This document shows, in pieces, positions 7,961 through 51,081 of a stretch of 51,081 bases of DNA (position 1 is the first letter of the stretch; every line of letters starts with the position of its first letter). The translations under genes and the position numbers were made by a program. The DNA comes from a bacterium (GTDB taxonomy: Bacteria; Patescibacteriota; Microgenomatia; Levybacterales; UBA12049), in contig JAUYMJ010000011.1 in assembly GCA_030698775.1 (NCBI GenBank), positions 1-51,081 of the forward strand. Reading direction: 5' to 3'. Below the pieces are notes generated by a model, which was not told the DNA's origin, made no database searches, and saw only the letters and a program-made list of their open reading frames with translations.

Positions 7961-9598
7961 ATGAATTCCTGGAAAAAGTACCTTCTCATCCTTCTTCTTT
8001 CATCTTTCCCCCTCGTCCACATGTTTTTGACACCCGACCTTCCCCACACAAGTGACGGTGCAATGCATACCATCAGGTTTGCTTCGTATTATAAAGAATT
8101 GGTCGCCGGACAATTTCCCGTGAGATGGGCGAGTCAGTTCGATTATGGATACGGCACCCCTATATTTAATTTTTTTGCTCCGCTTCCGTATATGCTTGGA
8201 GTTCCTTTCATCGTGTTCGGAGTTCCTCTTGTAATGGTCCTGAAGCTTAATTTTGCACTCTCTTACCTTCTCGCCGGTATATGTATGTACCTTTTTGCGA
8301 AATCCTACTTCAAAGACGAAAAAGTCGCGATATTTGTTACCCTCATGTACCAGTATGCGCCGTTCCGGCTGGTAGATATGCTCGTTCGGGGAAGCTTGGG
8401 GAGCCTTTACTCGTATACAATGCTGCCGCTTCTTTTTTATGCCATTACGAAATTTATTGAGAAAAAAACATATGCGTATTTTGTGTTGATCGCTCTTGCA
8501 ACTGGCCTTCTTTCGATGAGCCACAATATTGTCGGATTTGTGTTCTTCGGGATAAGCGTCCTTTATATTCCGTTTGCGACGAGGAAAATCCGTGAGATTG
8601 TTTCGGTGTATCTGGCAATGGGACTTGGCTTAACGTTAGCCGGTTTTTTTCTCATCCCGGCGATCCTGGAGCATAAGTATGTCAACGGATATCTTTTCAC
8701 CAAGGACCTTTTTTATGACCATTTCCCGCCTCTTTATAAACTGATTCTTCCAAACATCACGAATGATGTTTCACTCCGTGTCGCTGAGGTTTCTGTTCAG
8801 ATCGGGATCTTTCATTTGATTGCGTTTGGTATACTTTTCTTTCTTTTTGTTAGGAGACGTCTCACGGGGAGCAGTAAACATCCGGTACTCTATCTTCTTC
8901 TTATCTCCTTTCTGACATTTCTTTTTATAGAACCTATTACGAAACCTCTTTGGGAAAATATTTCAGTGATCAGGCAGTTTCAGTATCCATGGAGGCTCCT
9001 TTCTATTATTTGCTTCACATCTGCTTTTGCGTCTGCATTTGTTATCATCAAATATCCAATTCTCCAAAAGAAAACTGTGTATTTTGTCCTCTCCGGGCTT
9101 GTCATATTCTCAACGGTTGTTTATTGGGCGCCATACCAAGGTTATCAAAAGGTTAGTCAGGAAGCGTTTTGGAATTATCCGAAGTCAACAAATTATTTTG
9201 CAGAGGTCAATACCATCTGGATGGCTGATGAGCCAAGAGCGTTTCCAAAAAACAGAATTGAAATCATTGCGGGTGATGCGAGTGTTTCAGATATTAAGAT
9301 AGCACAAACAACACATTCGTTTTTGGTTAATGCAAGGGAGCCCTCAACCGTCCTTGACAGGACGTATTTTTTCCCCGGGTGGAGAGTTCTCGTTGATTCG
9401 GCAGAAGTACCTATGCAGTTCCAAGATCAGAACTACAGGGGCTTGATCACATTTGCTGTTCCTCAAGGAAATCATAAGGTCACTGTTTTTAAAGGTGAAA
9501 ACAAGCTTGAGATAATTAGTGACGGCATTAGTATTGCAACAGGTATCGTTTTGATCGGTGGCTGGTTTTTCTTCCAGAAAAAACAAAAAATCGTATGA
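7961..9598 (+). CDS. PTPS-related-domain polytopic membrane protein (PF10131-like), paralog A
   Basis: DGAMHTIRFASYYKELVAGQFPVRW...YGYGTPIFNFFAPLPYMLG. It has more than 10 hydrophobic segments and the C-terminal FPGW...VPQGNHKVTVF module. It is a paralog of 30718 and 32285. Confidence 0.75.
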   Translation: MNSWKKYLLILLLSSFPLVHMFLTPDLPHTSDGAMHTIRFASYYKELVAGQFPVRWASQFDYGYGTPIFNFFAPLPYMLGVPFIVFGVPLVMVLKLNFALSYLLAGICMYLFAKSYFKDEKVAIFVTLMYQYAPFRLVDMLVRGSLGSLYSYTMLPLLFYAITKFIEKKTYAYFVLIALATGLLSMSHNIVGFVFFGISVLYIPFATRKIREIVSVYLAMGLGLTLAGFFLIPAILEHKYVNGYLFTKDLFYDHFPPLYKLILPNITNDVSLRVAEVSVQIGIFHLIAFGILFFLFVRRRLTGSSKHPVLYLLLISFLTFLFIEPITKPLWENISVIRQFQYPWRLLSIICFTSAFASAFVIIKYPILQKKTVYFVLSGLVIFSTVVYWAPYQGYQKVSQEAFWNYPKSTNYFAEVNTIWMADEPRAFPKNRIEIIAGDASVSDIKIAQTTHSFLVNAREPSTVLDRTYFFPGWRVLVDSAEVPMQFQDQNYRGLITFAVPQGNHKVTVFKGENKLEIISDGISIATGIVLIGGWFFFQKKQKIV

Positions 9599-11973
9599 TT
9601 GAGAATCTTCGTCGTTTTCTTCCCGTTTTTCTCGTAATTAGTGTTGTCACTGCCATTTTTTTCTCACCGGTTTTTTTGAAAGGAAAGATTCCTTTTCCGG
9701 GAGATCTTCTTCTCGCACAATATCAGCCTTGGCGGTCAACATCTTTTAGCGGGATTGCACCAGGTGCTGTTCCGAATAAGGCCCAGTACTTCGATACGCT
9801 GCGTCAGCTCTACCCTTGGAAGACGTTTGCTATTCAGGAGATAAAGCAGGGAAGATTCCCTCTCTGGAATCCTCATAATTTTTCAGGAACACCTCTTTTC
9901 GCAAATTTCCAATCTGCAATTCTCTATCCTCTTAACATTTTGTATCTTCTGTTGTCGCAGGTGAACGCATGGACAATCATTGTCATGCTGCAACCTTTTC
10001 TCTCGATGATTGCTGTTTTTCTTCTCTCCCGCAAATATAAGATTTCTAACTCAGGAGCAATGCTTGCATCAGTATCGTATGCATTTTGTCTCTACATGAC
10101 GAGTTTTCTTGAATATAACATTATGGGCCATTTTATGTACCTTGTCCCTTTTTCAATGCTGATTGTTGAGTATGCGTTGGCAAAAAAGTCATGGGCGTAT
10201 CCAATTCTTTCACTTCTTATCGCACTTTCTGGTTTTGCCGGTCACGCGCAACTCTTCGCCGGAACGGTTTTGTATCTTGTTTTGTACACTTTTCTCAGAA
10301 ACTTCCAAAGTGTGACAAGATTTCGAAGCGTTCTTAGAGCATATGCCGTTTTTCTTTTCTTCCTTATTCTTGGTGTTGGTATTGCTTCGGTGCAACTCCT
10401 CCCGGGAGTTGAACTTATCAACCATGCCGCAAGGTCATCGCATCCGTCAGCGTATTTTTTTACGAACCTTCTTATCCGCCCGTCGCAATTTATCCTGTAT
10501 TTAATTCCTGATCTTTTCGGAAATCCCGCAGCCAAAAACTATTTACTCCCTTTTTCCTATCCGTCTAAGGCTTTGTATGTAGGGATGAGCGCCTTTTTCC
10601 TTGCGATCCTTGCGATTGTTTCCCGTACATCAAGTCCTGTAAAAAAAACTATCCTTCTGACCACTGTCGTAGTTGGTTTGGGCGTATTCCTCAATCCAGT
10701 CTCAATGGTTTATGCATTGAACATTCCTTTTTTCTCCTCAAGTTCCCCAAGTAATTTTATCTTTTTTATTTCTTTAGGATTGTGTTTACTTGCTGGTTTT
10801 GGACTTGATAGCGTGCAGCAAAGCGTAAAAAAAACGCTCGTAGTACTTTCCGGAATATGGTCTGTGATGGTTGTGTGGATAGCAGTACTTTTCCTTTCAC
10901 GAACCCCTGTCGTGAACAACAACATTATCTATTCATTCCTCATTCTCGCATTGTTGACTGGTGGTGTCTTGTTGCGTCTCAAAATAAAAAAATTCTCAAT
11001 GATGACCGGTTTTTTTGTGCTTCTTTCGGTGTTTGACCTCTTGTATTTTTTCAATAAATTCAACTCCTTTGTCCCCGCGTCTTACGTATACCCCAACACT
11101 CCGATCGGTGAATATCTTTCATCACAGACTGGTATAGAAAGGAGCTGGGGATATAGCTATGCTGGCATCGAAGCGAATTTTGCGACGCAGCTTGGTATGT
11201 ATTCTCCTGACGGATACGACCCTCTCTATCCGAAAGAGTACGGACAGCTTATTCAGACATCGAAAGATGGCAAAATTCCGTTAGATTTCACTGATCAGAC
11301 AAGATCCGATGCGGTCATTCCGGGCGGGTTTGGAAAAACAGATATGGCTGATAATCCCTATCGTCTGCGGCTCCTCTCACTTCTTGGGGTAAAATACATT
11401 CTTGATAAAGTAGAGAATGGTTCAACGGCAGAAACATTTCCGCCTGAAATATTTGACAAGACTTCCACAATTGATGATTTTTCTGTCTTTACCTATAAGG
11501 AGGCGGCACCACGTTTTTTTCTCACCTCAAATTATGAAATATACTCCTCGGATGATGAATTAACGAAAAAACTTTATGCGAAAACGTTTGACCCGAGACA
11601 AACTGTTCTTCTTGACGAAATTCCTTCATTTCCAACACACAGAAACAAGGAGAGAAAGATAGCCAAACTTATTTCCTACAACCCCCGTTTTGTGACTATT
11701 CAAACTGAGACAAATGATTCCTCCCTTTTGTATCTATCGGATACATACTATCCGGGATGGAATGCATTTATTGATCAAAGACCGGTGAAGATATATCAGG
11801 CAAATTATGCATTCCGGGCCGTAGAAGTGCCTGCAGGACGCCATACCGTCACGTTTACCTATGAGCCAAAGTCGTTTTTATCTGGACTTTTTCTGAGTAT
11901 TGTGAGTATCATAATTCCGATGTACGGATGTGTGATTATGGTTTTTTCACGTAAGAAATCACGATTACAATGA
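9595..11973 (+). CDS. YfhO family membrane protein (putative extracytoplasmic glycosyltransferase), paralog 1
   Basis: FPGDLLLAQYQPWR, LWNPHNFSGTPLFANFQSAILYPLN, and C-terminal YYPGWNAFIDQRPV...VPAGRHTVTFTYEP. It has an ATGA overlap with the upstream gene. Confidence 0.8.
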   Translation: MIENLRRFLPVFLVISVVTAIFFSPVFLKGKIPFPGDLLLAQYQPWRSTSFSGIAPGAVPNKAQYFDTLRQLYPWKTFAIQEIKQGRFPLWNPHNFSGTPLFANFQSAILYPLNILYLLLSQVNAWTIIVMLQPFLSMIAVFLLSRKYKISNSGAMLASVSYAFCLYMTSFLEYNIMGHFMYLVPFSMLIVEYALAKKSWAYPILSLLIALSGFAGHAQLFAGTVLYLVLYTFLRNFQSVTRFRSVLRAYAVFLFFLILGVGIASVQLLPGVELINHAARSSHPSAYFFTNLLIRPSQFILYLIPDLFGNPAAKNYLLPFSYPSKALYVGMSAFFLAILAIVSRTSSPVKKTILLTTVVVGLGVFLNPVSMVYALNIPFFSSSSPSNFIFFISLGLCLLAGFGLDSVQQSVKKTLVVLSGIWSVMVVWIAVLFLSRTPVVNNNIIYSFLILALLTGGVLLRLKIKKFSMMTGFFVLLSVFDLLYFFNKFNSFVPASYVYPNTPIGEYLSSQTGIERSWGYSYAGIEANFATQLGMYSPDGYDPLYPKEYGQLIQTSKDGKIPLDFTDQTRSDAVIPGGFGKTDMADNPYRLRLLSLLGVKYILDKVENGSTAETFPPEIFDKTSTIDDFSVFTYKEAAPRFFLTSNYEIYSSDDELTKKLYAKTFDPRQTVLLDEIPSFPTHRNKERKIAKLISYNPRFVTIQTETNDSSLLYLSDTYYPGWNAFIDQRPVKIYQANYAFRAVEVPAGRHTVTFTYEPKSFLSGLFLSIVSIIIPMYGCVIMVFSRKKSRLQ

Positions 11974-13709
11974 AGCCCCACACAAAAAAAATTCTTCTAC
12001 TCCTGTTTATTTTTTCGGTTGCACTTATTCTGCGCTTTTACAAGCTTGGCGTCATACCGGACGGATTGCAGCAGGATGAATCATCGATTGGGTACAACGC
12101 ATATAGCATCCTTTTGACCGGAAAAGACGAACATGGAGTATTTCTTCCGCAAAATTTCCAGGCATTTGGTGAATATAAATTGCCGGGTTATATCTATGCT
12201 TCGGTTGTTCCGATTGCAGTTTTCGGACTGAACCCTTTTGCAATTCGCTTCGTTTCTGCAGTGTCGGGATTTCTGTCGGTTGTTGTCGTATTTTTTCTCA
12301 CAAAGACATTGATTCATTTTTTTCGTCGCGATCCAACTGTAAACGAGTCAAGGCTTGAGGAATATCTTCCCTACATCACGGCATTTTTGGTAGCAATTAA
12401 TCCGTCCCACCTGCAATTCTCACGAGCAGCGTTTGAAGTAATGCTTGCCAATTTTTTGATCCTCAGCGCAGTCCTCCTTTTCCTAAAAGGAGTCAAAAAG
12501 TCGGGAAGATTCATTTTTTTCTTCTCTGCTGTTTTTTTCTCCCTGTCGATATACACCTACAACATTGCCCGCATTTTTGTTCCGCTGTTGGTCATAGCGC
12601 TTTTTATCGTTTTCTGGAAAGATTTTTTTTCGCGGAGAAAAAGTTCACTTTTCATTTTCGCTTTGGCGTTTCTCATCTGTCTTGTCCCTTTTGCTGTTGG
12701 AGTACTGACTAAGGGCGGGGCTGATTCGACCATCGGGACGCTCATTTTCTCAAGCGCTAAAGTGCAGGCACCTCTTCTGGAGTTTCGGAGTTATTTTATT
12801 GATGTTCCTACGATACTGAATAAATTACTTTTCAACTCCTGGATTTTGACATTTTGGCAGTATCTTCAAAATGTCGCTGCAAATCTTTCCATACCATTTT
12901 TTTTCATCAAAGGATCTGGGAACGGGATCGATGGAATCGGCACGACAGGGCAGTGGTATCTTTTCGAACTTCCTCTCGTGGTTTTTGGACTGTTCCGCCT
13001 ATGGAAAGAAAAGAGTAAAGGAGCAACAATCGTCCTTTTCTGGATACTTTCACTTGTATTCATTTCCGGGTTCACGAGGGAACCTCCGCAAGCGACAAGA
13101 ACGTTTTTTCTCATTTTTCCTGTCACACTTTGTTCAGGGCTTGGTCTGCTTCAGGTAGTCAGACGTATAATAGCGATGAGGAATAACTATCTGCAACGTG
13201 TAGTAACAGGAGTTTCAGTAGCCGTTGTGGTTTATTTTGTTTTTCTTTATTTTGCCTCCTACTATTATCGATTCCCGATTTACTTTGCTAAAAACTGGAG
13301 GACGGGAGACAGGGATGTCGCTTTATTTATTAAGGCTCAGCAGGGTAACTATGACAAGATTCTCATTGATGAGAAATCGGGGTTTATGTATACCTCACTG
13401 CTCACCTATCTTCCGTTGTCTCCTCTTGAGTTTCAAAAGAGCGCTTTGTGGAAGAAGGAAGATTCGGAAGGCTTTACCCACCCTGTATCGTTTGGGAAAT
13501 ACTTAATAAAAGATATTGACTGGACGAAAGACCTGACTCCCAAAACACTTATCGTGACGACTGTGAGCAATAAACCTGTGGAGATGGAAACAGTAGAGAC
13601 GATCTCTTATCCACTGCGTCCGGTCGTCATCAATGTCGGCCAGGAAATCATGCAGTTTCCGACAAAAGATGATGCGTATGTCCTGGTCGATACGGAAAAC
13701 TTACACTAG
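11970..13709 (+). CDS. GT39/ArnT-like (PMT_2-type) membrane glycosyltransferase
   Basis: DESSIGYNAYSILLTGKDEHG in the first loop (the Asp-Glu motif region of GT-C enzymes). It is polytopic, has an ATGA overlap, and is a paralog of 13725..15407. Confidence 0.75.
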   Translation: MKPHTKKILLLLFIFSVALILRFYKLGVIPDGLQQDESSIGYNAYSILLTGKDEHGVFLPQNFQAFGEYKLPGYIYASVVPIAVFGLNPFAIRFVSAVSGFLSVVVVFFLTKTLIHFFRRDPTVNESRLEEYLPYITAFLVAINPSHLQFSRAAFEVMLANFLILSAVLLFLKGVKKSGRFIFFFSAVFFSLSIYTYNIARIFVPLLVIALFIVFWKDFFSRRKSSLFIFALAFLICLVPFAVGVLTKGGADSTIGTLIFSSAKVQAPLLEFRSYFIDVPTILNKLLFNSWILTFWQYLQNVAANLSIPFFFIKGSGNGIDGIGTTGQWYLFELPLVVFGLFRLWKEKSKGATIVLFWILSLVFISGFTREPPQATRTFFLIFPVTLCSGLGLLQVVRRIIAMRNNYLQRVVTGVSVAVVVYFVFLYFASYYYRFPIYFAKNWRTGDRDVALFIKAQQGNYDKILIDEKSGFMYTSLLTYLPLSPLEFQKSALWKKEDSEGFTHPVSFGKYLIKDIDWTKDLTPKTLIVTTVSNKPVEMETVETISYPLRPVVINVGQEIMQFPTKDDAYVLVDTENLH

Positions 13710-15467: not shown

Positions 15468-16418
15468 TTAGGTTTTTAACAATTTTTTTGCCAATGGAAG
15501 ATACCCAAATGACGCAAGTTGCGGATTTGTCCTCGTACTTATTTCCCTGAGCTCTTTCCTGCTAAGTTCCCTGGCTGTTTCTATATTCGTTTTCTCATCG
15601 GCTTTTCTGATAGTTCCCCAAGGGTATACTTCGGTAAGTCGTTTCCCGTTCCAGCTGGGATAGAGGAGCGTATCGCTTTTTTGAAGCCCGGTTTGCGTCA
15701 GGAATTCATCCAGTGCGGCAATCGGACCTTTGATTATGTCTTCGTATCTGACTATAAAGAAGCGGTCAGGGTACAGTTCTTTATACCAGAGCGCATATAA
15801 TTGACAGAGGATCCATCCGGTTAGATAGTGGTCCATAGACAGCGGGACGGGCCGCTTTTTGGTCTCCGCGTAAGCTGAAAAAGGGTTCCTGACAACATGA
15901 AGGATGAAAGCCTCTCCGGGGAAGTCTTGCAGGATTTTACCGGAATCAACGCCTACGATCGGACTGTAACCCATGAAGTATTTTTCTTTACCACTTCTGT
16001 TGTAATTTTCCCAGGCGTGAAACGTCGCAACGAAAAACGCCTCGACAATCCTTTTTCTCGACAACGCTCTTTGAGCCAAAAATGCGACAAATTCACTCTT
16101 TCTACCTTTTTCTGAAAAAACAAAATCTGCATCTTTGAATTTACTTACATAGGGTGTTTTGGCAAGGATTTTGCATTCCTCATCGATAATCATCTCGTAC
16201 AGTTCATCTGGAGATGCGGAATTCGGAAAAATCGGCCAGCGGTATTTTTGTGGAAAGAGACTTGAGAGATGATCGTTGACGAATTTTGTCCCGATCTGTG
16301 ATTCAAATGGATACACATGTATTTCGTTATGCCCATCGAAAAGCCGATGCGTCGTATTCCCGCCGTTCTCATACATTGCGGAAATCATGATGAGCTTAAA
16401 GTTGTCTTTTTTTACCAT
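15468..16418 (-). CDS. sulfotransferase-like protein (tentative)
   Basis: The N-terminal ISAMYENGGNTTHRLF resembles a 5'-PSB P-loop-like motif, and HVVRNPFSAYAETKKR resembles the RxPxD-type 3'-PB motif. It appears soluble. Confidence 0.5.
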   Translation of the reverse strand: MVKKDNFKLIMISAMYENGGNTTHRLFDGHNEIHVYPFESQIGTKFVNDHLSSLFPQKYRWPIFPNSASPDELYEMIIDEECKILAKTPYVSKFKDADFVFSEKGRKSEFVAFLAQRALSRKRIVEAFFVATFHAWENYNRSGKEKYFMGYSPIVGVDSGKILQDFPGEAFILHVVRNPFSAYAETKKRPVPLSMDHYLTGWILCQLYALWYKELYPDRFFIVRYEDIIKGPIAALDEFLTQTGLQKSDTLLYPSWNGKRLTEVYPWGTIRKADEKTNIETARELSRKELREISTRTNPQLASFGYLPLAKKLLKT

Positions 16419-16424
16419 ACGCCA

Positions 16425-21047: not shown

Positions 21048-21156
21048 ACGGCGAGATCAGAGAAATACTACTCTACGCGTTATGCTTTTGCAATAAACAG
21101 AATTGTTTGTCAAAATAAATCGTGTTATAAAGGGTGGATCAGCATTGCCCTTATTA

Positions 21157-41664: not shown

Positions 41665-41889
41665 TGTTTTTTCCCAGAAACGAAGCTCTTCAATCGTAAA
41701 TCGTTTTTTTGCAAACCGAAAAAGATAGAGTATCTCAAGTATCCCGGCAGTGTTGATAACAAGGAGTACGATAAACCAATTCCTCTGGTCCAACTTTGCT
41801 GCTCTCCACAACGCGATTCCTTTCCAAAGCAGCGACCAGGCAAACAGAAGGATGAAGACAGGTGAGTTCGGATTCAGGATATTTTCCAT
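41656..41889 (-). CDS. small two-TM membrane protein (DUF5652-like)
   Basis: FAWSLLWKGIALWRAAKLDQRNWFIVLLVINTAGILEILYLF. The ATG at 41889 is preferred over the ORF-track start. Confidence 0.55.
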   Translation of the reverse strand: MENILNPNSPVFILLFAWSLLWKGIALWRAAKLDQRNWFIVLLVINTAGILEILYLFRFAKKRFTIEELRFWEKTSK

Positions 41890-45268: not shown

Positions 45269-45275
45269 TAACCAT

Positions 45276-46250
45276 ATGAAAGTGAGTTTTATTGTCCCGA
45301 ATTTTAACGGAGAGGAAATTCTTCATAAAAATCTTCCTAGGGTTCTTGAGGCTGCCGAGCTCTATGGAGAAGCCATACAACACTTTACAGAGGTAATTGT
45401 CATTGACGACTGCTCAACAGATCGGTCGGTGACGGTTATTGAGAGTATTTTTTCCAAAAAAATGAGTAAGCATGTCAAATGCCTCCTGTTAAAGAATTCT
45501 GTTAATAAAGGATTTTCTTCAACCGTTAACAAAGGTGCACGTCAGGCAACGGGGGAGATCCTTGTTCTTCTCAATACTGATGCGTATCCTGAGGATACGA
45601 AAAATTTTCTCGTTTCACCGCTTGGATATTTTTCTGACCCTAATTGTTTTGCAGTCGGGTTTATGGATAAAAGCGTCGAGCAGGACGGAAGTATTGTGAT
45701 GCGCGGAAGGGGAGTGGGATGCTGGAAGAGAGGAGTGCTCGTTCATATAAAAGGTAATGTCTCAAAACAAAATACCCTTTGGGTCAGTGGGGGGAGCAGT
45801 GCGTATCGAAAAACGACATGGGATACACTCGGGGGCATGAATGAGATATATAATCCGTTTTATTGGGAGGATATCGATCTCTCGTACCGTGCTCTTAAAT
45901 CCGGATACTCGATTATTTTTGACCCAAAGTGTGTCGTCGTTCATGAGCATGAGAGAGGAGCGATTAAAAGAAGCAGGTCCCGTTTTACGGTACAAACAAT
46001 CGCACACAGGAATCAACTTTTCTTCGTATGGCTTAACTTGACCGACCCTGCCCTACTGATTGCACATATTTTGTGGCTTCCCTACCATATCCTCAATACC
46101 CTCCGACAAGGAGATTGTACCTTTCTCATCGGATTTTTTCAGGCGGTAATGAGACTTCCGGAAATCCTTCGTCTGAAGGGACACAATAGTGCCCAATTTG
46201 TCCTATCAGACGGTCAGGTTGTGAGTGAATTTACATCAGAGGTCCGCTAG
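45276..46250 (+). CDS. GT2 family glycosyltransferase
   Basis: VSFIVPNFNGEEIL, VIDDCSTDRS, LNTDA and YWEDIDLSYR. The ATG at 45276 replaces the ORF-track N-extension. Confidence 0.8.
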   Translation: MKVSFIVPNFNGEEILHKNLPRVLEAAELYGEAIQHFTEVIVIDDCSTDRSVTVIESIFSKKMSKHVKCLLLKNSVNKGFSSTVNKGARQATGEILVLLNTDAYPEDTKNFLVSPLGYFSDPNCFAVGFMDKSVEQDGSIVMRGRGVGCWKRGVLVHIKGNVSKQNTLWVSGGSSAYRKTTWDTLGGMNEIYNPFYWEDIDLSYRALKSGYSIIFDPKCVVVHEHERGAIKRSRSRFTVQTIAHRNQLFFVWLNLTDPALLIAHILWLPYHILNTLRQGDCTFLIGFFQAVMRLPEILRLKGHNSAQFVLSDGQVVSEFTSEVR

Positions 46251-46251
46251 C

Positions 46252-47652
46252 ATGTTTTTGTCTTTACGAAAAAGTATTTCACTATGCACACTGTTGTCTA
46301 TCGTACTTTGTGTTCTGTTTGCTGTTGTTGGGTCGCTTATTTCGCTCAATAGGTATTGGCAATATGACGTTTACTATTATGATTTTGGAATTTTTGACCA
46401 AGCTATCTGGAGCGTTTCACGCTTGCAACCTCCGATCATTGACCATTTAGCTGCAGGTCATACCTTCATATTTGCCGATCATTTCAGTCCGGGGATTTTC
46501 CTCCTTTCGCCGTTGTACTGGGTTACGCAAAAGCAAGAAGTCATCCTGATTGCCCAGGCAACTGCAGTTGCCGTGAGCGGCCTCTTTCTTTACCTGAGCG
46601 GGAGAATAATCGTAAAAGACGAATGGTGTTCGGCAGGGGTGATGCTCTGTTATTTTCTTTTTATAGGTGTCCAGAATGCGGTTATTACCGATTTTCATGA
46701 AGTAACCGTTATGGTTCTTCCGCTTGCGGTACTATTTTGGTCAATTGCATCGGGGAGAAAGAGAGCATTTTTAATTTCTTTTATCGTCATGCTTCTATTT
46801 AAAGAATCAAATTTCCTTATCGGATTGGGTGTGAGCTTTTTTGTGTTTATCACCTATCCTTCATGGAGAAAACTGGCGGGAGTGACCGCTTTCGTTTCTG
46901 TGCTTTGGGCAATCCTGGCAATTCTCATTGTTATTCCCTTCTTCTCACATGGAATTTATTCTTACAAACCTGAATTACCCCAGGGCGTTTCACTTCTTAC
47001 TGCTTTTTTTGACGACCAGAGAAAACGTGATACGTTATGGTTCAGTTTTTTATCGTTCGGATTTTTACCTCTCCTCACACCTGCATTTTGGCCGTTACTT
47101 CTTGAGGAGTTTGCTGTCAGGTTTCTTCCCCGTTTTTCCGAAACGAGGTGGGGACTTGGGCTTCATTACAATATTGTGACTGCGGTTTTTCTCTCTGTCT
47201 CTTCGATGTACGCACTTACGAAATTACGGAATCGTTTTTCGAGTCGTATAGTACGCGTTTTGATAATTCTCATCATTTTCGTCTCATTAGTCCTTTATCG
47301 GTTTGTTCTTCGTGGCCCGTTTGCACTCGGATATAATAGTGCCTTTTATTCACACACGAAGGATTTTCATTTTTTAAACAACATGCTTTCGATGATTCCA
47401 AACGATGCTTCTGTCATGACCCAGAATAACCTTGGTGCCCATGTTACCCACCAACCGGTGTATATGCTTACAGGAGAGTATAAAACAGTAAAACCCGACT
47501 ATATTATGCTTGATTTACGGGATGGGCAGAATCCAAACGATTTTTTTCCGACAAGAAAAGTCCCGGATGTCGTGAAAGCAATCAAGTCGGATGCTGAGTA
47601 TGACGAAATCTATCATGCCGGTGACCAGTACATCTTCAAACGGAAGAGATAA
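46252..47652 (+). CDS. DUF2079 family polytopic membrane protein
   Basis: YDFGIFDQAIWSVSRL...FADHFSPGIFLLSPLYW matches the DUF2079 signature as I recall it. Confidence 0.7.
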   Translation: MFLSLRKSISLCTLLSIVLCVLFAVVGSLISLNRYWQYDVYYYDFGIFDQAIWSVSRLQPPIIDHLAAGHTFIFADHFSPGIFLLSPLYWVTQKQEVILIAQATAVAVSGLFLYLSGRIIVKDEWCSAGVMLCYFLFIGVQNAVITDFHEVTVMVLPLAVLFWSIASGRKRAFLISFIVMLLFKESNFLIGLGVSFFVFITYPSWRKLAGVTAFVSVLWAILAILIVIPFFSHGIYSYKPELPQGVSLLTAFFDDQRKRDTLWFSFLSFGFLPLLTPAFWPLLLEEFAVRFLPRFSETRWGLGLHYNIVTAVFLSVSSMYALTKLRNRFSSRIVRVLIILIIFVSLVLYRFVLRGPFALGYNSAFYSHTKDFHFLNNMLSMIPNDASVMTQNNLGAHVTHQPVYMLTGEYKTVKPDYIMLDLRDGQNPNDFFPTRKVPDVVKAIKSDAEYDEIYHAGDQYIFKRKR

Positions 47653-47675: not shown

Positions 47676-48392
47676 ATGCTCGTGTCGATCATTGTCCCTG
47701 TGTTTAATGAAGAGAAGACTATAGCAACAGTGCTTCATGAACTTTCCGTCCTCCGAATTCCGGAAACTGAGTTTGAGATTATCGTTGTCAATGACGGTTC
47801 GTCTGATGCGACTCAGTCCGAGATTAATTCAGTGAAGTCCAAGATAAAGCGGTTGAAGGTTATCGAACATAAAGAGAACATGGGGAAGGGCGCCGCGATA
47901 CAGACCGCTCTTAAATCTGCAAAGGGTGAGTATGTGCTGATTCAGGATGCTGATCTTGAGTATAACCCTTCGGATATTTCAGTCCTGCTTAAGCCAATTG
48001 TCACAAAGCAGGCAGAAGTCGTTTTCGGAACGCGTCTGCGACGGTTTCCAAATTTCTCGCGCGATGAGAGGACCCCTACCTTCTTTTTGCATTATTTGGG
48101 AAATAGGCTTCTCAGTTTTGCAACAAGCGTTCTCTACGGCCAATGGGTCACAGACATGGAAACGGGATATAAGCTTCTGCCGAGACCTTTTTTGACAAAG
48201 ATTAGGCTAAATGCAAAAAGTTTTGATTTTGAGCCTGAAATCACCGCAAAAATACTAAAAAGAGGATATCGGATTTGCGAAATTCCAATTACAACGAATC
48301 CCAGGGACCACACGGCGGGAAAAAAACTTGTTGCGAGTAAGGATGGACCCGTAGCGCTTCTGACGCTTTTAAAATATCGTTTTACAGATTAG
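47676..48392 (+). CDS. GT2 polyprenyl-phosphate glycosyltransferase-like
   Basis: VSIIVPVFNEEKTI, VVNDGSSDAT and IQDADLEY. Confidence 0.85.
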   Translation: MLVSIIVPVFNEEKTIATVLHELSVLRIPETEFEIIVVNDGSSDATQSEINSVKSKIKRLKVIEHKENMGKGAAIQTALKSAKGEYVLIQDADLEYNPSDISVLLKPIVTKQAEVVFGTRLRRFPNFSRDERTPTFFLHYLGNRLLSFATSVLYGQWVTDMETGYKLLPRPFLTKIRLNAKSFDFEPEITAKILKRGYRICEIPITTNPRDHTAGKKLVASKDGPVALLTLLKYRFTD

Positions 48393-48393: not shown

Positions 48394-49884
48394 ATGGTAT
48401 TACGTTCCTTTTTTCGGAAGCATTGGTACGAAATTTCGCTTTTTGCTATTCTTTTGCTCTCGGTGGCCCTTCGTTTTTATGATTTTTCAAACAGATTTGG
48501 TCTCGCATACGACCAGGCGAGGGATGTGATCGTTGCGAGAGAGGCTCTTCGGGCGTTTACCATTCCGATGATCGGACCCTTCGCCTCTGCCGGTCCCTTC
48601 GTGTATGGCCCTCAGTGGTACTGGTTACTCATGCTGTTTGTTGCTGTTTCCCCCGGCGCATTAATAACTCCTTGGATTGTTCAGGATCTCTTGTATGTGC
48701 TTTCGGTTTTTGTCATGGTTCTGATCGGGAAAGAAATTTCCGGAAAAACTTTTGGTTTGCTTCTTGGGCTTTTGTTTTCCGTCTCAGTAGGGCAGGTTGC
48801 CCAATCGGTAAACCTATCGTCTCCTTCGATGGTCGGTATTGTTGCAGTTTATTGTGTCTATGTAGCGGTATTGTTTCTAAAAAAGGAAAATCCCATCTTC
48901 GCAGGTTTATTAGGGTTTCTTATAGGCAACGCAATTAATATCCATTTTCAGGCAATCGGCCTGATCTTCCTTGGCATTTCTTCATTACTTATCATCCGGA
49001 AAAATCGATTCAGGTCGGTTGGTTATTTCCTGATAGGTTTTCTGATACCGTTTATTCCGCTTTTTCTTTTCGATATCAACAACAATTTTTTTGAGAGTAA
49101 AAATATCCTTGAATACTATCTCCATGGGCAATACGTAACAGCCTTGCCTAAGCGGTGGTTGACATATGCGTTCGTTTTCTGGCCTGACGCATGGGCAAGG
49201 ATAGTTGGGGGATACCTGTATTTTTCATACCCGCTCATTGTTTTTTTGGGAATTATTACGATATATCACCTATGGAAACGGTCCATTAGTCGAGTTATCG
49301 TGTCTTTGTTGTTGTTTTTTGCAGTCGAGATCGTTTTGCTTCGTTATTATACTGGACCTCTCTATCACAGCTACCTCTCTACCCTCCATCCAGTTATTGT
49401 TCTTTTTTCGGGATGGGCACTGTATCAACTCATAAAAATGAGAAAGCGTATAGGAATGCTCGTTACACTCATACTCATTTGTGGAAGTTTGCTCCTCAAT
49501 ATTAATGAGATACGCAATTCGAGCAACAACACAGCCCGCCAGGCGGAGGCAAAAAGAAAGCTTCTTCTTGCAGTATATCCTGAAAGGAAATTTGCCGTCT
49601 ATGATTACGGGTATAATTCGACGGCAAATAGCCTTCCGCTTGTACTATATTTGCAAGTCAATGGAGAAATATCAGATGATGGATATAAGATAGGATTTGG
49701 ATCTACAACGGGTGTGAAAAAACAGATACATAATGAGATCTCTGGAAATTTATCAGGATTTCGACTAAGGGATCTAAACAGTAGCTCGTCCGCAGAATTA
49801 TCAAAAGAAGGGTGGGCATTCGTGAATCCGAGTATTGTCTATCATTCCACTGTGAGGTGGTATGAAGATAAAAATAGTGAATAA
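48394..49884 (+). CDS. GT39/ArnT-like polytopic membrane protein (divergent)
   Basis: LRFYDFSNRFGLAYDQARDVIVAREAL...GPFVYGPQWYW. It is polytopic and starts one nucleotide after the upstream GT2 stop codon. Confidence 0.6.
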   Translation: MVLRSFFRKHWYEISLFAILLLSVALRFYDFSNRFGLAYDQARDVIVAREALRAFTIPMIGPFASAGPFVYGPQWYWLLMLFVAVSPGALITPWIVQDLLYVLSVFVMVLIGKEISGKTFGLLLGLLFSVSVGQVAQSVNLSSPSMVGIVAVYCVYVAVLFLKKENPIFAGLLGFLIGNAINIHFQAIGLIFLGISSLLIIRKNRFRSVGYFLIGFLIPFIPLFLFDINNNFFESKNILEYYLHGQYVTALPKRWLTYAFVFWPDAWARIVGGYLYFSYPLIVFLGIITIYHLWKRSISRVIVSLLLFFAVEIVLLRYYTGPLYHSYLSTLHPVIVLFSGWALYQLIKMRKRIGMLVTLILICGSLLLNINEIRNSSNNTARQAEAKRKLLLAVYPERKFAVYDYGYNSTANSLPLVLYLQVNGEISDDGYKIGFGSTTGVKKQIHNEISGNLSGFRLRDLNSSSSAELSKEGWAFVNPSIVYHSTVRWYEDKNSE

Positions 49885-51081
49885 TCTCAAATTTGACTCA
49901 GTCTTGCTCTTCGCTCTTGTTGTTCCTTTCATCATGGGATATCGGATCGGGAGCGATGAGACGCCTTATCTGCTATTCGGGTTTATCTTTTTGCTTCTCA
50001 TAGGTTATGCCGGTCTTGATCTCGTAAATCTACCACGATTAATTTTTGAAAAATTGAAACTTGTCATCCTTTGGCTGACGATCGTTACCGTAATTGGGAG
50101 CGGTTTTGTTTCAGCGATCATTGTCCGTCACCAGACAGCACCTATTTATATGATCCACGACATTATTATCCAACAGGAAGTGGCGATTCGATACGTGTTG
50201 CACGGAAAAAATCCGTATAAAGAGACGTATTTTGGTACCCCTCTTGAGCAGTGGCACTACGATGAGAAAGAGGTGAATCCTGCTCTCTATCATTTCGTGA
50301 TGGAGCCGTTCTACCTTCTCTTTGCCATTCCGTTCTATTTTGTATCAAATATACTTTTTGGATATTTTGATGCCCGAATGCCTCTTCTTTTTCTCTTCTT
50401 TATCGTCTTAAGCACAGCATCCCTGCTTGTGAAAGAGCAAGAGAAAAAGCGGCTTTTTTTACTGCTTCTTGCCTTCCACCCATCGATGCTTCCTTATACG
50501 CTTGAGGGCAGATCTGATATGTTCATGTATGCATTTTTGCTTGTGGGATGGGCGTTATTATTCTGGAAAAAAGAATTTCTCTCTGGCATCTCACTTGGTC
50601 TGGCATGTGCGGTGAAGCAGTCGGCATGGCCGTTCATTCCATTCTACGCTGCGTATGTATTCTATAAGAAAAGGTCTTTAAGAAAGACGATCATATCCTT
50701 AGCGCCGTTTCTCATCACGTTTGTGATTGTTACTTTGCCATTTTTACTTTGGGATCCAAAAAACTTCTATGAGAGCACCATAGCGTACCTATCCGGGAGT
50801 ACTGCGCATAGTTATCCTATTTCAGGATATGGTTTGGGAAGCGTGTTGCTGCAACTTGGGGTCATCAAGGATAAATTTGCATACTATCCCTTTGTAATCT
50901 GGCAGATAGTAGTCTGTCTTCCGCTGCTGGTCGTTTTTCTCTGGTTTTTGAGAAGCCATCTTACCGTGAGAAACATGATAGTATCGTATGCGCTGTTTCT
51001 CTTTATTTTCTGGTATATGTCCCGATATTTTAACAATAGCCATATTGCATTTGTCTCCTATATCCTCATCGCCGCATATTT
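49862..51081 (+). CDS. polytopic membrane protein, GT-C/DUF2029-like, 3'-truncated by the window end
   Basis: This gene is not in the ORF track because it has no stop in the window. My own translation from the ATG at 49862 (MKIKIVNNLKFDSVLLFALVV...) stays open to 51081. It contains GRSDMFMYAFLLVGWALLFWKK...GLACAVKQSAWPFIPFY, and several hydrophobic segments are visible in the translated part. Confidence 0.6.
   Translation, partial: MKIKIVNNLKFDSVLLFALVVPFIMGYRIGSDETPYLLFGFIFLLLIGYAGLDLVNLPRLIFEKLKLVILWLTIVTVIGSGFVSAIIVRHQTAPIYMIHDIIIQQEVAIRYVLHGKNPYKETYFGTPLEQWHYDEKEVNPALYHFVMEPFYLLFAIPFYFVSNILFGYFDARMPLLFLFFIVLSTASLLVKEQEKKRLFLLLLAFHPSMLPYTLEGRSDMFMYAFLLVGWALLFWKKEFLSGISLGLACAVKQSAWPFIPFYAAYVFYKKRSLRKTIISLAPFLITFVIVTLPFLLWDPKNFYESTIAYLSGSTAHSYPISGYGLGSVLLQLGVIKDKFAYYPFVIWQIVVCLPLLVVFLWFLRSHLTVRNMIVSYALFLFIFWYMSRYFNNSHIAFVSYILIAAY

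What the first reader, a model, noticed from the sequence alone, without database searches (positions are those of the whole stretch)
7961..51081. Hyper-expanded locus of polytopic GT-C-type envelope glycosylation proteins
In about 43 kb I count 15 large polytopic membrane proteins. They are 3 YfhO-family (9595, 39397, 42986), 3 PTPS-related PF10131-like (7961, 30718, 32285), 5 GT39/ArnT-like (11970, 13725, 27695, 29220, 48394), one unassigned GT-C-like (26484), DUF2079 (46252), a partial DUF2029-like (49862) and a discoidin-domain membrane protein (21157). Alongside them are 8 GT2, 1 GT4 and one Wzx-like flippase. I do not recognise a priming phosphoglycosyltransferase (WecA/WbaP type), a Wzy polymerase or O-antigen ligase, or an STT3/PglB-type WWDxG oligosaccharyltransferase. 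The locus therefore does not look like a classical O-antigen or capsule cluster. It looks more like many parallel lipid-phosphate-sugar-dependent extracytoplasmic decoration systems concentrated in one place. PTPS-related and DUF2079 proteins have no established function, so their embedding here gives a functional hypothesis for them.
Basis: partly seen in the sequence, partly recalled or inferred. Interest (0 to 1): 0.75.

Follow-up and report, generated by a model that had tools for sequence, protein, structure and literature searches.

The report
Giant membrane glycosyltransferase array in Levybacteria
A tiny-genome candidate-phylum bacterium (Levybacteria) devotes at least 43 kb to 15 membrane-embedded GT-C sugar transferases plus their donor-making enzymes; related genomes share the core of this locus, which points to an elaborate, still unknown surface glycan.

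Summary
Between 7961 and 51081 there are 34 protein genes. Fifteen encode polytopic proteins (at least 8 hydrophobic segments) that fall in GT-C families:
- 3 YfhO
- 3 PTPS_related
- 6 PMT_2-like, including the discoidin-domain protein
- 1 GT87
- 1 DUF2079

Also confirmed are 8 GT2, 1 GT4 and one MOP/Wzx flippase. I found no priming transferase, Wzy, ligase or STT3.

A high-confidence AlphaFold model of a PTPS_related protein matches only GT-C enzymes (STT3, PglB, Emb, ArnT). The MptA/B-like model best matches PIG-M, ALG3 and PimE.

The organism is a Levybacteria (CPR/Patescibacteria) MAG. The array is typical of the lineage, not unique to this strain. Relatives keep the same gene order with one-to-one orthologs, while paralogs within the window share only 25-35% identity. 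In relatives the array runs at least 10 kb past the window's end, giving at least 17 GT-C genes.

About 16 kb (7961-23650) lies between Lon and a conserved tRNA-Glu and is an accessory island. It contains an Arn-like sugar-modification operon.

Best reading: glycan assembly or decoration on the outer face of the membrane, using polyprenyl-phosphate-sugar donors made by about 4 short DPM1/ArnC-like GT2 enzymes. Whether the GT-Cs act in series or in parallel, and on what acceptor, is unresolved.

The parts
7961..9598 (+). PTPS_related GT-C (545 aa, 13 hydrophobic segments), first gene of the island trio
   Evidence: Pfam PF10131 at 46 bits. 27% identical to 30718 and 32231. Conserved Asp after TM1. 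Ortholog in L081 at 40% identity.
9595..11973 (+). YfhO-family GT-C (792 aa)
   Evidence: Pfam PF09586 at 76 bits. C-terminus hits NCBIfam PgfM1/PgfM2. 28-30% identical to 39316 and 42986.
11970..13709 (+). PMT_2-like GT-C (579 aa) with no Pfam hit of its own
   Evidence: 28% identical to 13725 over 566 aa, E 8e-40. DE motif in loop 1 (QQDESS). Orthologs at 41-44% in L036, L067 and L081.
13725..15407 (-). PMT_2/ArnT-like GT-C (560 aa), last gene of the reverse Arn-like operon
   Evidence: Pfam PMT_2 at 37 bits and PMT at 31 bits. Weak ArnT hit in NCBIfam. DE motif TNDEAN.
15468..21047 (-). Sugar-modification genes of the reverse operon: sulfotransferase (15468-16418), DUF4915/TIGR03032 (16425-17735), short GT2 ArnC/AglJ-like (17600-18292), NAD-dependent epimerase/dehydratase (18285-19286), split transketolase (19283-20197, 20175-21047)
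   Evidence: Pfam; NCBIfam. No operon counterpart in the 80 Lon-anchored loci: no hits for 15468, 16425 or 17600, and only isolated weak hits (24-37% identity) for 18285, 19283 and 20175.
21103..23646 (+). Polytopic PMT_2-like membrane domain fused to an F5/8-type-C (discoidin) carbohydrate-binding domain (847 aa)
   Evidence: Pfam F5_F8_type_C at 50 bits, residues 606-716. 9 hydrophobic segments. hhalign to the PMT_2-like profile: probability 79%, E 1.5e-5.
24085..24160 (+). tRNA-Glu(CTC), a conserved landmark that separates the accessory island from the core array
   Evidence: ARAGORN. The same tRNA lies between Lon and the GT2/MptA_B core in L001, L037, L065 and L070.
25711..26487 (+). Short soluble GT2 (258 aa), candidate polyprenyl-phosphate-hexose synthase and first gene of the conserved core
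   Evidence: Pfam Glycos_transf_2 at 85 bits. NCBIfam hits to EpsD, PgfS, ArnC, PpgS and dolichyl-P-hexose transferase, all below cut-off. Orthologs at 55-80% identity directly upstream of the MptA_B gene in 27 of 80 relatives.
26484..27698 (+). MptA/B-family (GT87-related) GT-C, 404 aa
   Evidence: Precomputed PF26314 MptA_B_family. NCBIfam MptA 50 bits, MptB 29 bits. AF2 pLDDT 89; best Foldseek hits are PIG-M, ALG3, ALG9 and PimE. Invariant D40 at the end of TM1.
27626..30716 (+). Two PMT_2 GT-C genes (27626-29203 and 29193-30716)
   Evidence: Pfam PMT_2 at 44 and 51 bits. 32% identical to each other. DE motifs FTDEAI and FTDESI. 29193 has a 65% ortholog in L081.
30718..33979 (+). Two PTPS_related GT-C genes (30718-32283 and 32285-33979)
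   Evidence: Pfam at 23 bits (sub-threshold) and 34 bits. Paralog BLAST 5e-37 to 9e-42. AF2 model of 32285 has pLDDT 92, and its top 36 Foldseek hits are all GT-C. Near-invariant H33 and D34 (consensus motif HDD) after TM1.
33976..34689 (+). Short soluble GT2 (237 aa), ArnC/AglJ/PgfS-like candidate polyprenyl-P-sugar synthase
   Evidence: NCBIfam ArnC at 89 bits over residues 3-211, AglJ at 72 bits. 84% ortholog in L081.
34714..36174 (+). MOP/Wzx-type flippase (486 aa)
   Evidence: Pfam Polysacc_synt_3 at 154 bits. NCBIfam MOP flippase 95 bits, O-glycosylation flippase 84 bits, TuaB 70 bits. 77% ortholog in L081.
36135..39425 (+). Cytoplasmic transferases: GT2 (36135-37073), conserved 214-aa protein with one TM and no family (37077-37721), GT2 rhamnosyltransferase-like (37723-38646), GT2 (38643-39425)
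   Evidence: Pfam; NCBIfam. Orthologs at 59-67% in L081.
39316..41664 (+). YfhO-family GT-C (782 aa; likely start 39397)
   Evidence: Pfam YfhO at 79 bits. 61% ortholog in L081.
41656..41889 (-). Small two-TM DUF5652 protein (77 aa) on the opposite strand, in the only sizeable gap of the array
   Evidence: Pfam DUF5652 at 87 bits. Conserved at the same position and strand in L081-L084 at 59-77% identity.
41910..42989 (+). GT4 glycosyltransferase
   Evidence: Pfam Glycos_transf_1 at 78 bits.
42986..45268 (+). YfhO-family GT-C (760 aa)
   Evidence: Pfam YfhO at 42 bits. 61% ortholog in L081.
45144..46250 (+). GT2 with one C-terminal TM segment
   Evidence: Pfam Glycos_transf_2 at 61 bits. TM count.
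46225..47652 (+). DUF2079 polytopic protein (GT-C-like), a window-specific insertion
   Evidence: Pfam DUF2079 at 149 bits, with a secondary PMT_2 hit at E 0.004. Absent from the syntenic position in L083 and L084.
47676..48392 (+). Short soluble GT2 (238 aa), AglJ/PpgS/dolichyl-P-hexose-transferase-like
   Evidence: NCBIfam AglJ 115 bits, PpgS 64 bits, DPhHxTase 59 bits.
48394..49884 (+). Divergent PMT_2-like GT-C (496 aa)
   Evidence: Own Pfam hit is sub-threshold at 20.3 bits. 28 of 47 homologs hit PMT_2, best E 1.5e-10. Near-invariant D40 in loop 1.
49862..51081 (+). GT87 (DUF2029) GT-C, cut about 5-13 residues before its end by the window edge
   Evidence: Pfam GT87 at 38 bits. Orthologs of 406-419 aa at 60-70% identity.

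Best explanation
This is the left and central part of a very large envelope-glycan locus that is conserved in Levybacteria (CPR/Patescibacteria).

Proposed mechanism:
1. Short, soluble GT2 enzymes of the DPM1/Ppm1/ArnC/GacI type (25711, 33976, 47676, and 17600 in the island) load single sugars from nucleotide sugars onto polyprenyl phosphate at the inner face of the membrane.
2. The MOP/Wzx-type protein (34714) carries lipid-linked sugars across the membrane. These may be monosaccharides, or an oligosaccharide built by the four other GT2 and the GT4.
3. On the outer face, the 15 GT-C enzymes (YfhO, PTPS_related, PMT_2-like, MptA/B-family, GT87, DUF2079) transfer these sugars to envelope acceptors.

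Each GT-C paralog is ancient (25-35% identity to its paralogs) and has its own ortholog in fixed order in relatives. There are only about 4 candidate donor synthases for 15 GT-C. I therefore favour mostly non-redundant, largely sequential steps that build and decorate one or a few complex surface glycopolymers. This is the logic of actinobacterial lipomannan, LAM and arabinogalactan assembly, rather than 15 independent Gtr-like systems.

The 16-kb block between Lon and tRNA-Glu is an accessory island. It adds an Arn-like module: transketolase, epimerase and sulfotransferase would modify the sugar, an ArnC-like GT2 would load it onto lipid, and an ArnT-like GT-C would transfer it. The island also carries a GT-C fused to a lectin domain.

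Shown: family and fold membership, gene order, conservation, and absence of the classical Wzy-pathway parts.
Inferred: donor type, membrane orientation, serial action, and acceptor.
For: - Families and topology: Pfam, NCBIfam and hydropathy.
- Fold: the PTPS_related model (pLDDT 92) matches STT3, AglB, PglB, Emb, ArnT, AftA/D, Pmt4 and DPY19, with 18 hits at E 1e-3 or better. The MptA/B-like model (pLDDT 89) best matches Dol-P-Man-dependent PIG-M, ALG3, ALG9 and PimE.
- Loop-1 acidic residues: a DE motif in four PMT_2-like proteins. A conserved Asp is seen in the PTPS_related, MptA/B-family and 48394-family alignments. In the YfhO trio no loop-1 acidic position is conserved across all three; only a later Asp is.
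- Operon structure: 25711-51081 is entirely on the + strand, with gaps of 24 bp or less or overlaps, apart from one 245-bp gap that holds an antisense DUF5652 gene.
- Conservation: the order MptA_B, PMT_2, (PTPS, YfhO, PMT_2), PTPS, PTPS, GT2, Wzx, GT2, X, GT2, GT2, YfhO, GT4, YfhO, GT2, GT2, PMT_2-like, GT87 recurs in independent assemblies. One-to-one orthologs are 38-84% identical, against 25-35% for paralogs.
- The GT2/MptA_B core lies downstream of Lon in 22 of 48 informative related genomes.
- Known precedents: systems of GT-A + flippase (GtrA- or Wzx-type) + GT-C (PMC8035078); LM/LAM made by an array of GT-C enzymes using polyprenyl-P-mannose from Ppm1 (PMC3123699, PMC3485146, PMC2440535).
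Against: - There is no biochemical data for any protein here.
- All NCBIfam hits are far below equivalog cut-offs, so donor sugars and acceptors are unknown.
- The short GT2 enzymes lack TM segments, and no GtrA-type flippase or GacJ-like partner was identified. The role of DUF5652 is unknown.
- The Foldseek match of the MptA/B-like model is weak (best E 0.02, TM 0.47).
- Three adjacent GT2-then-GT-C arrangements (25711/26484, 47676/48394, 17600...13725) look like classical one-to-one decoration pairs and favour the parallel reading.
- Four ordinary GT2, a GT4 and a Wzx would equally fit a conventional lipid-PP-oligosaccharide pathway whose priming enzyme and polymerase lie elsewhere.
- TM counts come from a crude hydropathy rule.
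Confidence: 0.62

Rival explanations
1. Many independent, parallel decoration systems. Each GT2/GT-C pair adds one sugar type to a different acceptor, as in Gtr, CsbB-YfhO or Csd systems, and the systems simply sit side by side.
For: GT2 lies immediately upstream of GT-C at 25711/26484 and 47676/48394, and within the reverse operon (17600...13725). The island and the DUF2079 gene are gained or lost as modules. B. subtilis and L. lactis carry several such pairs (PMC8035078).
Against: Only about 4 candidate polyprenyl-P-sugar synthases serve 15 GT-C. The order is fixed and each paralog has a one-to-one ortholog across relatives. Runs of 5-7 consecutive GT-C genes have no GT2 of their own.
Confidence: 0.25
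2. Mainly a protein O-glycosylation machinery. PMT-like and YfhO/PgfM-like enzymes would glycosylate S-layer proteins, pilins or Ser/Thr-rich surface proteins of the episymbiont.
For: PMT and PMT_2 hits. The YfhO C-terminus hits streptococcal PgfM1/PgfM2, and GT2 enzymes hit PgfS. The flippase hits the 'O-glycosylation flippase' model at 84 bits. Pilin glycosylation is suspected but unexplored in Patescibacteria (PMC11623550).
Against: All these hits are far below family cut-offs. MptA/B and GT87 relatives act on lipoglycans (PMC2440535). No acceptor protein gene is evident in the locus. Fifteen enzymes is many for protein glycosylation alone.
Confidence: 0.1
3. An ordinary Wzx/Wzy-type O-antigen or capsule cluster whose priming transferase, polymerase and ligase lie outside the window, with the GT-C proteins being incidental neighbours.
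For: The Wzx-like flippase is flanked by 4 GT2 and a GT4. Priming enzymes can be encoded away from their cluster (my own knowledge: GacO/WecA).
Against: No Wzy_C, chain-length regulator, Bac_transf or Glycos_transf_4 is present in 51 kb here or in the syntenic stretches of four relatives, which reach 10 kb past the window end. GT-C genes are interleaved with these genes and translationally coupled to them.
Confidence: 0.03

Closest known systems
Multi-component transmembrane glycosylation systems of Gram-positive bacteria (CsbB-GtcA-YfhO; GacI/J-GacK(Wzx)-GacL; Csd pairs) (PMC8035078)
   Same: A GT-A (GT2) enzyme that would make a polyprenyl-P-sugar, a flippase (here Wzx-type, as GacK), and a polytopic GT-C of the YfhO or PMT_2 type encoded next to it. 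Short GT2 enzymes without TM segments resemble the GacI arrangement.
   Different: There are 15 GT-C genes in one locus instead of 1-3 scattered pairs. No GtrA-type flippase or recognisable GacJ partner is present. Additional GT-C families (PTPS_related, MptA/B, GT87, DUF2079) occur. The acceptor polymers (LTA, WTA, rhamnan) are not known to exist in CPR bacteria.
Actinobacterial lipomannan/LAM/arabinogalactan assembly (Ppm1 + PimE, MptA, MptB, MptC, Emb, Aft) (PMC3123699, PMC3485146, PMC2440535)
   Same: Many different GT-C enzymes act in sequence outside the membrane, using a few polyprenyl-P-sugar donors made by a GT2 (Ppm1). 26484 is an MptA/B-family homolog and 49862 is GT87. The PTPS_related fold matches Emb and Aft enzymes.
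   Different: In mycobacteria the genes are dispersed over the chromosome; here they form one co-directional array. Identities are very low (MptA model 50 bits against a cut-off of 439). No PimA/PimB or phosphatidylinositol anchor pathway is seen. The organism is a CPR bacterium of roughly 1 Mb (estimated; not measured here).
Arn (Ara4N) lipid A modification pathway (ArnA/B/C/D/T)
   Same: The reverse operon 13725-21047 has the same logic: nucleotide-sugar tailoring enzymes, an ArnC-like GT2 (17600) and an ArnT/PMT_2-like GT-C (13725).
   Different: The tailoring enzymes differ (split transketolase, epimerase, sulfotransferase, DUF4915). CPR bacteria are not known to make lipid A (my own knowledge). 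The ArnC and ArnT hits are weak (35 and 23 bits).
Wzx/Wzy-dependent O-antigen or capsule loci
   Same: A MOP/Wzx flippase with several soluble GT2 and GT4 enzymes.
   Different: No initiating phosphoglycosyltransferase, Wzy, chain-length regulator or ligase is present. GT-C enzymes dominate.

Membership tests
GT-C superfamily (fold level) | Polytopic membrane domain (8-13+ TM helices) | tested here: met
   All 15 proteins have 8-18 hydrophobic segments. The AF2 models are all-helical TM bundles.
GT-C superfamily (fold level) | Structural similarity to solved GT-C enzymes | tested here: met
   Tested for two of the 15. PTPS_related 32285: the top 36 Foldseek hits are all GT-C, with 18 at E 1e-3 or better. 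26484: best hits are PIG-M (probability 1.0, E 0.02), ALG3, ALG9 and PimE, which is weaker.
GT-C superfamily (fold level) | Conserved acidic residue(s) in the first extracytoplasmic loop | tested here: met
   DE motif in 11970, 13725, 27626 and 29193. Conserved Asp in the PTPS trio (near-invariant H33/D34; consensus motif HDD). D40 is invariant in the 26484 family and near-invariant in the 48394 family. Not clear for 39316 at the first YfhO position, nor for 46225 and 49862.
GT-C superfamily (fold level) | Uses a lipid-phosphate-linked sugar donor on the extracytoplasmic face | not testable with these tools
   Inferred from family membership and from the adjacent DPM1/ArnC-like GT2 genes.
YfhO (PF09586) | Pfam score above the gathering cut-off (28.5 bits) | tested here: met
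   76, 79 and 42 bits for 9595, 39316 and 42986.
YfhO-CsbB-GtcA teichoic acid glycosylation system | A membrane-anchored CsbB-type GT2 and a GtrA-family flippase as partners | tested here: not met
   The short GT2 enzymes have no TM segments. No GtrA-like small ORF is present; the only small membrane ORF is DUF5652. The flippase present is Wzx-type.
PMT_2 / GT39-GT83 (PMT, ArnT-like) | Pfam PMT_2 above the cut-off (26.1 bits) | tested here: met
   Met for 13725, 27626 and 29193 (37, 44 and 51 bits). 11970 qualifies only through paralogy (E 8e-40). For 48394 the evidence is at family level only (28 of 47 homologs). 21103 qualifies only through hhalign (probability 79%).
PTPS_related (PF10131) | Pfam score above the cut-off (26.4 bits) | tested here: met
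   7961 scores 46 bits and 32231 scores 34 bits. 30718 scores 23 bits (below cut-off) but is a clear paralog (5e-37 and 9e-42). The family belongs to Pfam clan GT-C (PMC7801869).
MptA/MptB alpha-1,6-mannosyltransferases | Reaches the NCBIfam equivalog cut-offs (MptA 439 bits, MptB 40 bits) | tested here: not met
   50 and 29 bits. The protein is a member of the broader Pfam MptA_B_family (PF26314, precomputed) but is not an equivalog.
GT87 (PF09594) | Pfam score above the cut-off (25 bits) | tested here: met
   49862 scores 37.8 bits.
DUF2079 (PF09852) | Pfam score above the cut-off (28.2 bits) | tested here: met
   46225 scores 148.7 bits.
Wzx/Wzy-dependent polysaccharide locus | Initiating phosphoglycosyltransferase (WecA/WbaP type) in the locus | tested here: not met
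   No Pfam hit to Glycos_transf_4 or Bac_transf in any ORF of 150 aa or more, nor in the gene lists of relatives.
Wzx/Wzy-dependent polysaccharide locus | Wzy polymerase, O-antigen ligase or chain-length regulator | tested here: not met
   No Wzy_C or Wzz hit. One of 47 homologs of 48394 hit EpsG, which I treat as noise.
STT3/PglB oligosaccharyltransferase | STT3 Pfam domain and the WWDxG motif | tested here: not met
   No STT3 hit. No WWD motif in any GT-C protein. The PTPS_related model resembles STT3 only at the TM-fold level.
Polyprenyl-phosphate glycosyltransferases (DPM1/Ppm1/ArnC/GtrB/AglJ type GT2) | Reaches an equivalog model cut-off | tested here: not met
   Best scores: 47676 against AglJ, 115 of 325 bits; 33976 against ArnC, 89 of 529 bits. 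These are homologs of this GT2 subgroup, and their specificity is unassigned.

The most novel reading that the evidence does not exclude
Levybacteria, and perhaps many Microgenomates, build a previously unknown complex envelope heteroglycan almost entirely outside the membrane. A dedicated single-locus assembly line of 17 or more GT-C enzymes would do this, analogous to but independent of mycobacterial LAM and arabinogalactan. PTPS_related and DUF2079 would then be active, uncharacterised GT-C glycosyltransferase families. The conserved antisense DUF5652 protein would be a new small membrane partner of the soluble polyprenyl-P-sugar synthases.
Probability: 0.3. Interest if true: 0.75.

Novelty: new variant of a known kind. 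Interest (0 to 1): 0.52.

Why it matters
CPR/Patescibacteria have tiny genomes and are thought to live attached to host cells, yet their surface chemistry is essentially unknown (PMC11623550 calls glycosylation in Saccharibacteria unexplored). This organism spends more than 40 kb on 15 or more GT-C enzymes, and relatives keep the order. That would be several percent of a genome of roughly 1 Mb (an estimate; genome size was not measured here). It implies strong selection for an elaborate surface glycan, which is a candidate determinant of host attachment, phage resistance or envelope integrity.

The locus also gives a compact natural context for three GT-C families with no demonstrated activity: PTPS_related, DUF2079 and the divergent PMT_2 subfamily of 48394. 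Each comes with candidate donor synthases next door, which makes their function testable in vitro. None of the six literature searches I ran for this found a description of such arrays in CPR bacteria.

Tried and rejected
- Exact-sequence look-ups of the window's Lon and DUF2079 proteins found nothing on record, probably because the called starts differ.
- Sequence searches of the PDB with 26484, 7961, 9595 and the 48394-family profile gave no meaningful hit. Fold comparison was therefore needed.
- A small four-sequence PMT_2-like profile did not detect 48394 or DUF2079 by hhalign. 48394 was rescued only by scanning its homologs.
- Relaxed Pfam scans (E up to 5) gave nothing for 37077, 2430 or 24299.
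- A direct-repeat search for att-like island boundaries between 7800 and 25750 returned only short T-rich matches of chance type.
- Promoter and terminator scans of the two intergenic regions were uninformative.
- GC content is uniform (0.40-0.45), so composition gives no evidence that the island is foreign.
- Transporter identity was rejected. MATE/MOP structures appear in the 26484 Foldseek list only at probability 0.13 or less and TM about 0.15.
- An assembly artefact was rejected because the same order occurs in independent ENA, Logan and NCBI assemblies.
- Recent tandem duplication was rejected because paralogs are only 25-35% identical.

Full report
**1. What is in the sequence**

The window has 40 protein-coding ORFs worth calling, plus one tRNA. 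Upstream of the finding lie unrelated genes: Fic, a fatty-acid desaturase, a 528-aa protein with no family, an SNase, DUF1003 and Lon protease at 5437-7866.

From 7961 to the window end there are 34 protein genes. I scanned every ORF of 150 aa or more against Pfam and scanned selected ones against NCBIfam.

| Family | Genes | Support |
|---|---|---|
| YfhO | 9595, 39316, 42986 | 76, 79, 42 bits |
| PTPS_related | 7961, 32231 | 46, 34 bits |
| PTPS_related | 30718 | 23 bits, below cut-off; paralog BLAST 5e-37 and 9e-42 |
| PMT_2 | 13725, 27626, 29193 | 37, 44, 51 bits |
| DUF2079 | 46225 | 149 bits |
| GT87 | 49862 | 38 bits |
| F5/8-type-C (discoidin) | 21103, C-terminal half | 50 bits |

- All 15 candidates have at least 8 hydrophobic segments.
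- The eight GT2 are 17600, 25711, 33976, 36135, 37723, 38643, 45144 and 47676.
- The GT4 is 41910. The MOP/Wzx-type flippase is 34714 (Polysacc_synt_3, 154 bits).

**2. The doubtful cases**

- 11970 has no Pfam hit. It is 28% identical over 566 residues to the PMT_2 protein 13725 (E 8e-40) and carries the loop-1 DE motif.
- 48394 scores only 20.3 bits against PMT_2. A search of 1.84 billion representative proteins gave 1373 homologs. Of 47 sampled homologs, 28 hit PMT_2 on their own, best E 1.5e-10. I treat it as a divergent PMT_2 subfamily.
- The membrane half of 21103 aligns to a PMT_2-like profile at hhalign probability 79%, E 1.5e-5.
It also hits NCBIfam MptA (50 bits, E 1.6e-13) and MptB (29 bits), both far below the equivalog cut-offs.

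**3. Fold evidence**

None of these proteins matches a PDB sequence directly.

- An AlphaFold2 model of the PTPS_related protein 32285-33979, built from 39 sequences, has mean pLDDT 91.6. Its top 36 Foldseek hits are all GT-C enzymes: STT3, AglB, PglB, EmbA/B/C, ArnT, AftA/D, Pmt4, DPY19 and ALG9/12. Eighteen of them have E 1e-3 or better.
- This model ends in an extracytoplasmic beta-sandwich (457-531) followed by a terminal TM helix. That region shows weak sequence similarity to the YfhO C-terminus.
- The model of 26484 has pLDDT 89.4. It best matches the Dol-P-Man-dependent enzymes PIG-M (probability 1.0, E 0.02, TM 0.47), ALG3, ALG9 and mycobacterial PimE. These matches are weak, but transporter hits are far worse.
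- Acidic residues sit where GT-C enzymes have their catalytic Asp, just after TM1: near-invariant H33 and D34 (consensus motif HDD) in PTPS_related, invariant D40 in the MptA/B-like family, DE in four PMT_2-like proteins, and D40 in the 48394 family.
- In the YfhO trio no loop-1 acidic position is conserved in all three; only a later Asp is.

The would-refute condition "transporters or non-glycosyltransferases" is therefore not met.

**4. What is absent**

No ORF hits Bac_transf, Glycos_transf_4 (WecA/MraY), Wzy_C/O-antigen ligase, Wzz or STT3. No GT-C protein carries WWD. No GtrA-like small membrane ORF exists.

The only unannotated small membrane ORF is a DUF5652 protein on the minus strand at 41656-41889 (87 bits).

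**5. Organism and conservation**

Using Lon as an anchor, 80 species-representative genomes were retrieved. Of those carrying an informative label, most are Candidatus Levybacteria/Levyibacteriota or Patescibacteria MAGs; many others carry uninformative or evidently wrong labels. The best Lon identity is 88%.

- In 22 of the 48 genomes with at least 8 kb held downstream of Lon, an MptA/B-type GT-C gene follows within 10 kb.
- In the loci examined gene by gene, this gene is preceded by an ortholog of GT2 25711 (55-80% identity) and is itself an ortholog of 26484 (44-62%). PMT_2, YfhO or PTPS_related and further PMT_2-like genes follow.
- Context look-ups in four independent assemblies show the same long order as the window: MptA_B, PMT_2, (PTPS, YfhO, PMT_2), PTPS, PTPS, GT2, Wzx, GT2, 211-aa protein, GT2, GT2, YfhO, [antisense DUF5652], GT4, YfhO, GT2, GT2, about 500-aa PMT_2-like, GT87.
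- Beyond the point where the window ends, the relatives continue with 5-6 more PMT_2-type genes and one or two methyltransferases, and the array is still running 10 kb further on. One relative therefore has at least 17 GT-C-type genes in about 37 kb.
- Each window gene has a one-to-one ortholog in L081 at 38-84% identity. Paralogs within the window are only 25-35% identical.

The expansion is therefore ancient and conserved. It is not a recent or strain-specific amplification.

**6. What is specific to this genome**

In relatives, tRNA-Glu(CTC) lies between Lon and the GT2/MptA_B core. In the closest relative, L001, Lon is followed by one ORF, the tRNA, and then the core.

In the window, about 16 kb (7961-23650) sits between Lon and that tRNA. 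It contains:
- a PTPS-YfhO-PMT_2-like trio, whose orthologs (38-44%) lie inside the array in L081;
- a reverse operon (13725-21047) of split transketolase, epimerase/dehydratase, ArnC-like GT2, DUF4915, sulfotransferase and PMT_2;
- the discoidin-fused GT-C.

The reverse operon has no counterpart in the 80 Lon-anchored loci. 15468, 16425, 17600 and 21103 have no hits there at all. 18285, 19283 and 20175 have only isolated weak hits at 24-37% identity.

- DUF2079 (46225) is likewise absent from the syntenic site in relatives.
- GC content is uniform and no flanking repeats were found.
- I call this block an accessory island on synteny grounds only.

**7. Mechanism**

Four of the GT2 (25711, 33976, 47676, 17600) are short (230-258 aa), lack TM segments and are related to one another. 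Their best NCBIfam hits include polyprenyl- or dolichyl-phosphate sugar transferases (ArnC, AglJ, PgfS, PpgS, haloarchaeal Dol-P-hexose transferase) for all four; for 25711 the single top hit is EpsD. All hits are below the cut-offs. The other four GT2 and the GT4 look like ordinary chain-extending enzymes; 37723 hits a rhamnosyltransferase subfamily model.

Established knowledge (PMC8035078) describes systems in which:
1. a GT-A enzyme makes C55-P-sugar;
2. a GtrA- or Wzx-type flippase moves it across the membrane;
3. a YfhO or PMT_2 GT-C transfers the sugar to a wall polymer.

In the streptococcal GacI/J/K/L variant, a soluble GT-A works with a Wzx-type flippase.

Actinobacteria show the other precedent. 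An array of GT-C enzymes (PimE, MptA/B/C, Emb, Aft) builds LM/LAM outside the membrane from polyprenyl-P-mannose made by Ppm1 (PMC3123699, PMC3485146, PMC2440535).

The locus here combines both features. My reasons for favouring a mostly serial assembly and decoration pathway for one or a few complex glycans over 15 independent systems are:
- there are about 4 donor synthases for 15 GT-C;
- the order is fixed;
- start and stop codons overlap from 25711 to 51081;
- the paralogs are old but each is individually conserved.

I give this modest confidence. The adjacent GT2/GT-C pairs argue the other way. The acceptor (lipoglycan, wall polymer or surface protein) cannot be inferred from sequence.

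**8. Comparison with the known, and novelty**

Every component belongs to a known family or superfamily. PTPS_related is already listed in Pfam's GT-C clan with function unknown (PMC7801869).

What is unusual is the scale and organisation: at least 15 GT-C genes here and at least 17 in relatives, from six families, in one co-directional locus of a CPR bacterium. The genes take up 61% of the 43 kb.

Literature searches combining CPR, Patescibacteria, Microgenomates or Levybacteria with GT-C, YfhO, GT39, mannosyltransferase or glycosyltransferase found no description of this. A recent Saccharibacteria study calls their glycosylation unexplored (PMC11623550).

I rate it a new variant of a known kind, of moderate interest.

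Noticed in passing
window 41656-41889 (-); L081 19355-19585, L083 3083-3313, L084 3062-3292, L082 18662-18889: A 77-aa two-TM DUF5652 gene (Pfam 87 bits) lies antisense in the only sizeable gap of the co-directional array, between YfhO 39316 and GT4 41910. It is conserved at the same place and strand in four relatives (59-77% identity), and no gene was called on that strand in any of the four relatives' annotations (only L084 has a 34-aa + strand call in the gap). It could be a small membrane partner for the soluble GT2 enzymes; that is pure speculation.
   Followed up: partly
window 23765-24160: The first 12 nt of tRNA-Glu (GGCCCCATCGTC) are repeated 320 bp upstream at 23765-23776 (0 matches expected by chance). 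The next tRNA bases, TAGTGGT, follow there after an inserted stretch of about 48 nt containing inverted-repeat (hairpin-like) sequence. A GIY-YIG endonuclease ORF (23788-24099) fills the space, and its stop overlaps the tRNA 5' end. This looks like a GIY-YIG element inserted at the tRNA with partial target duplication.
   Followed up: partly
window 7961-23650: A block of about 16 kb between Lon and the conserved tRNA-Glu landmark is absent at this position in the closest relative (L001) and in other Levybacteria. It is an accessory glycosylation island without compositional signature or detectable flanking repeats.
   Followed up: yes
window 13725-21047 (-): An Arn-like reverse operon combines a split transketolase, an NAD-dependent epimerase/dehydratase, DUF4915/TIGR03032 and a sulfotransferase with an ArnC-like GT2 and a PMT_2 GT-C. 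This suggests a branched or two-carbon-extended and possibly sulfated sugar delivered through a lipid carrier. DUF4915 has no known function.
   Followed up: partly
window 1299-2384 (-) and 244-1302 (+): A membrane fatty-acid desaturase (Pfam 137 bits) and a Fic-domain protein sit upstream of Lon. From my own knowledge, a desaturase is notable in a CPR bacterium, because the group is generally thought to lack de novo lipid synthesis. Orthologs occur in L001 at 48% and 87% identity.
   Followed up: no
window 2430-4016 (+), 24299-24895 (-), 37077-37721 (+): Three conserved-looking ORFs have no Pfam or NCBIfam family even at relaxed thresholds. 37077 (214 aa, one N-terminal TM) has a 67% ortholog at the same position inside the array in L081 but is missing in L082.
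   Followed up: partly
L083 11314-21260; L084 11226-21248: In relatives the array continues past the GT87 gene, where the window ends. It adds 5-6 more PMT_2-type genes, one or two SAM-dependent methyltransferases (possibly for methylated sugars) and 550-560-aa polytopic proteins with no Pfam hit. The right-hand end of the locus was not reached.
   Followed up: partly
window 8000-51000, + strand: AT skew is strongly negative (-0.10 to -0.20) wherever + strand GT-C genes lie. This probably reflects T-rich codons for Phe, Leu and Ile in membrane proteins and is not a replication signal (that reading is mine and was not tested).
   Followed up: no
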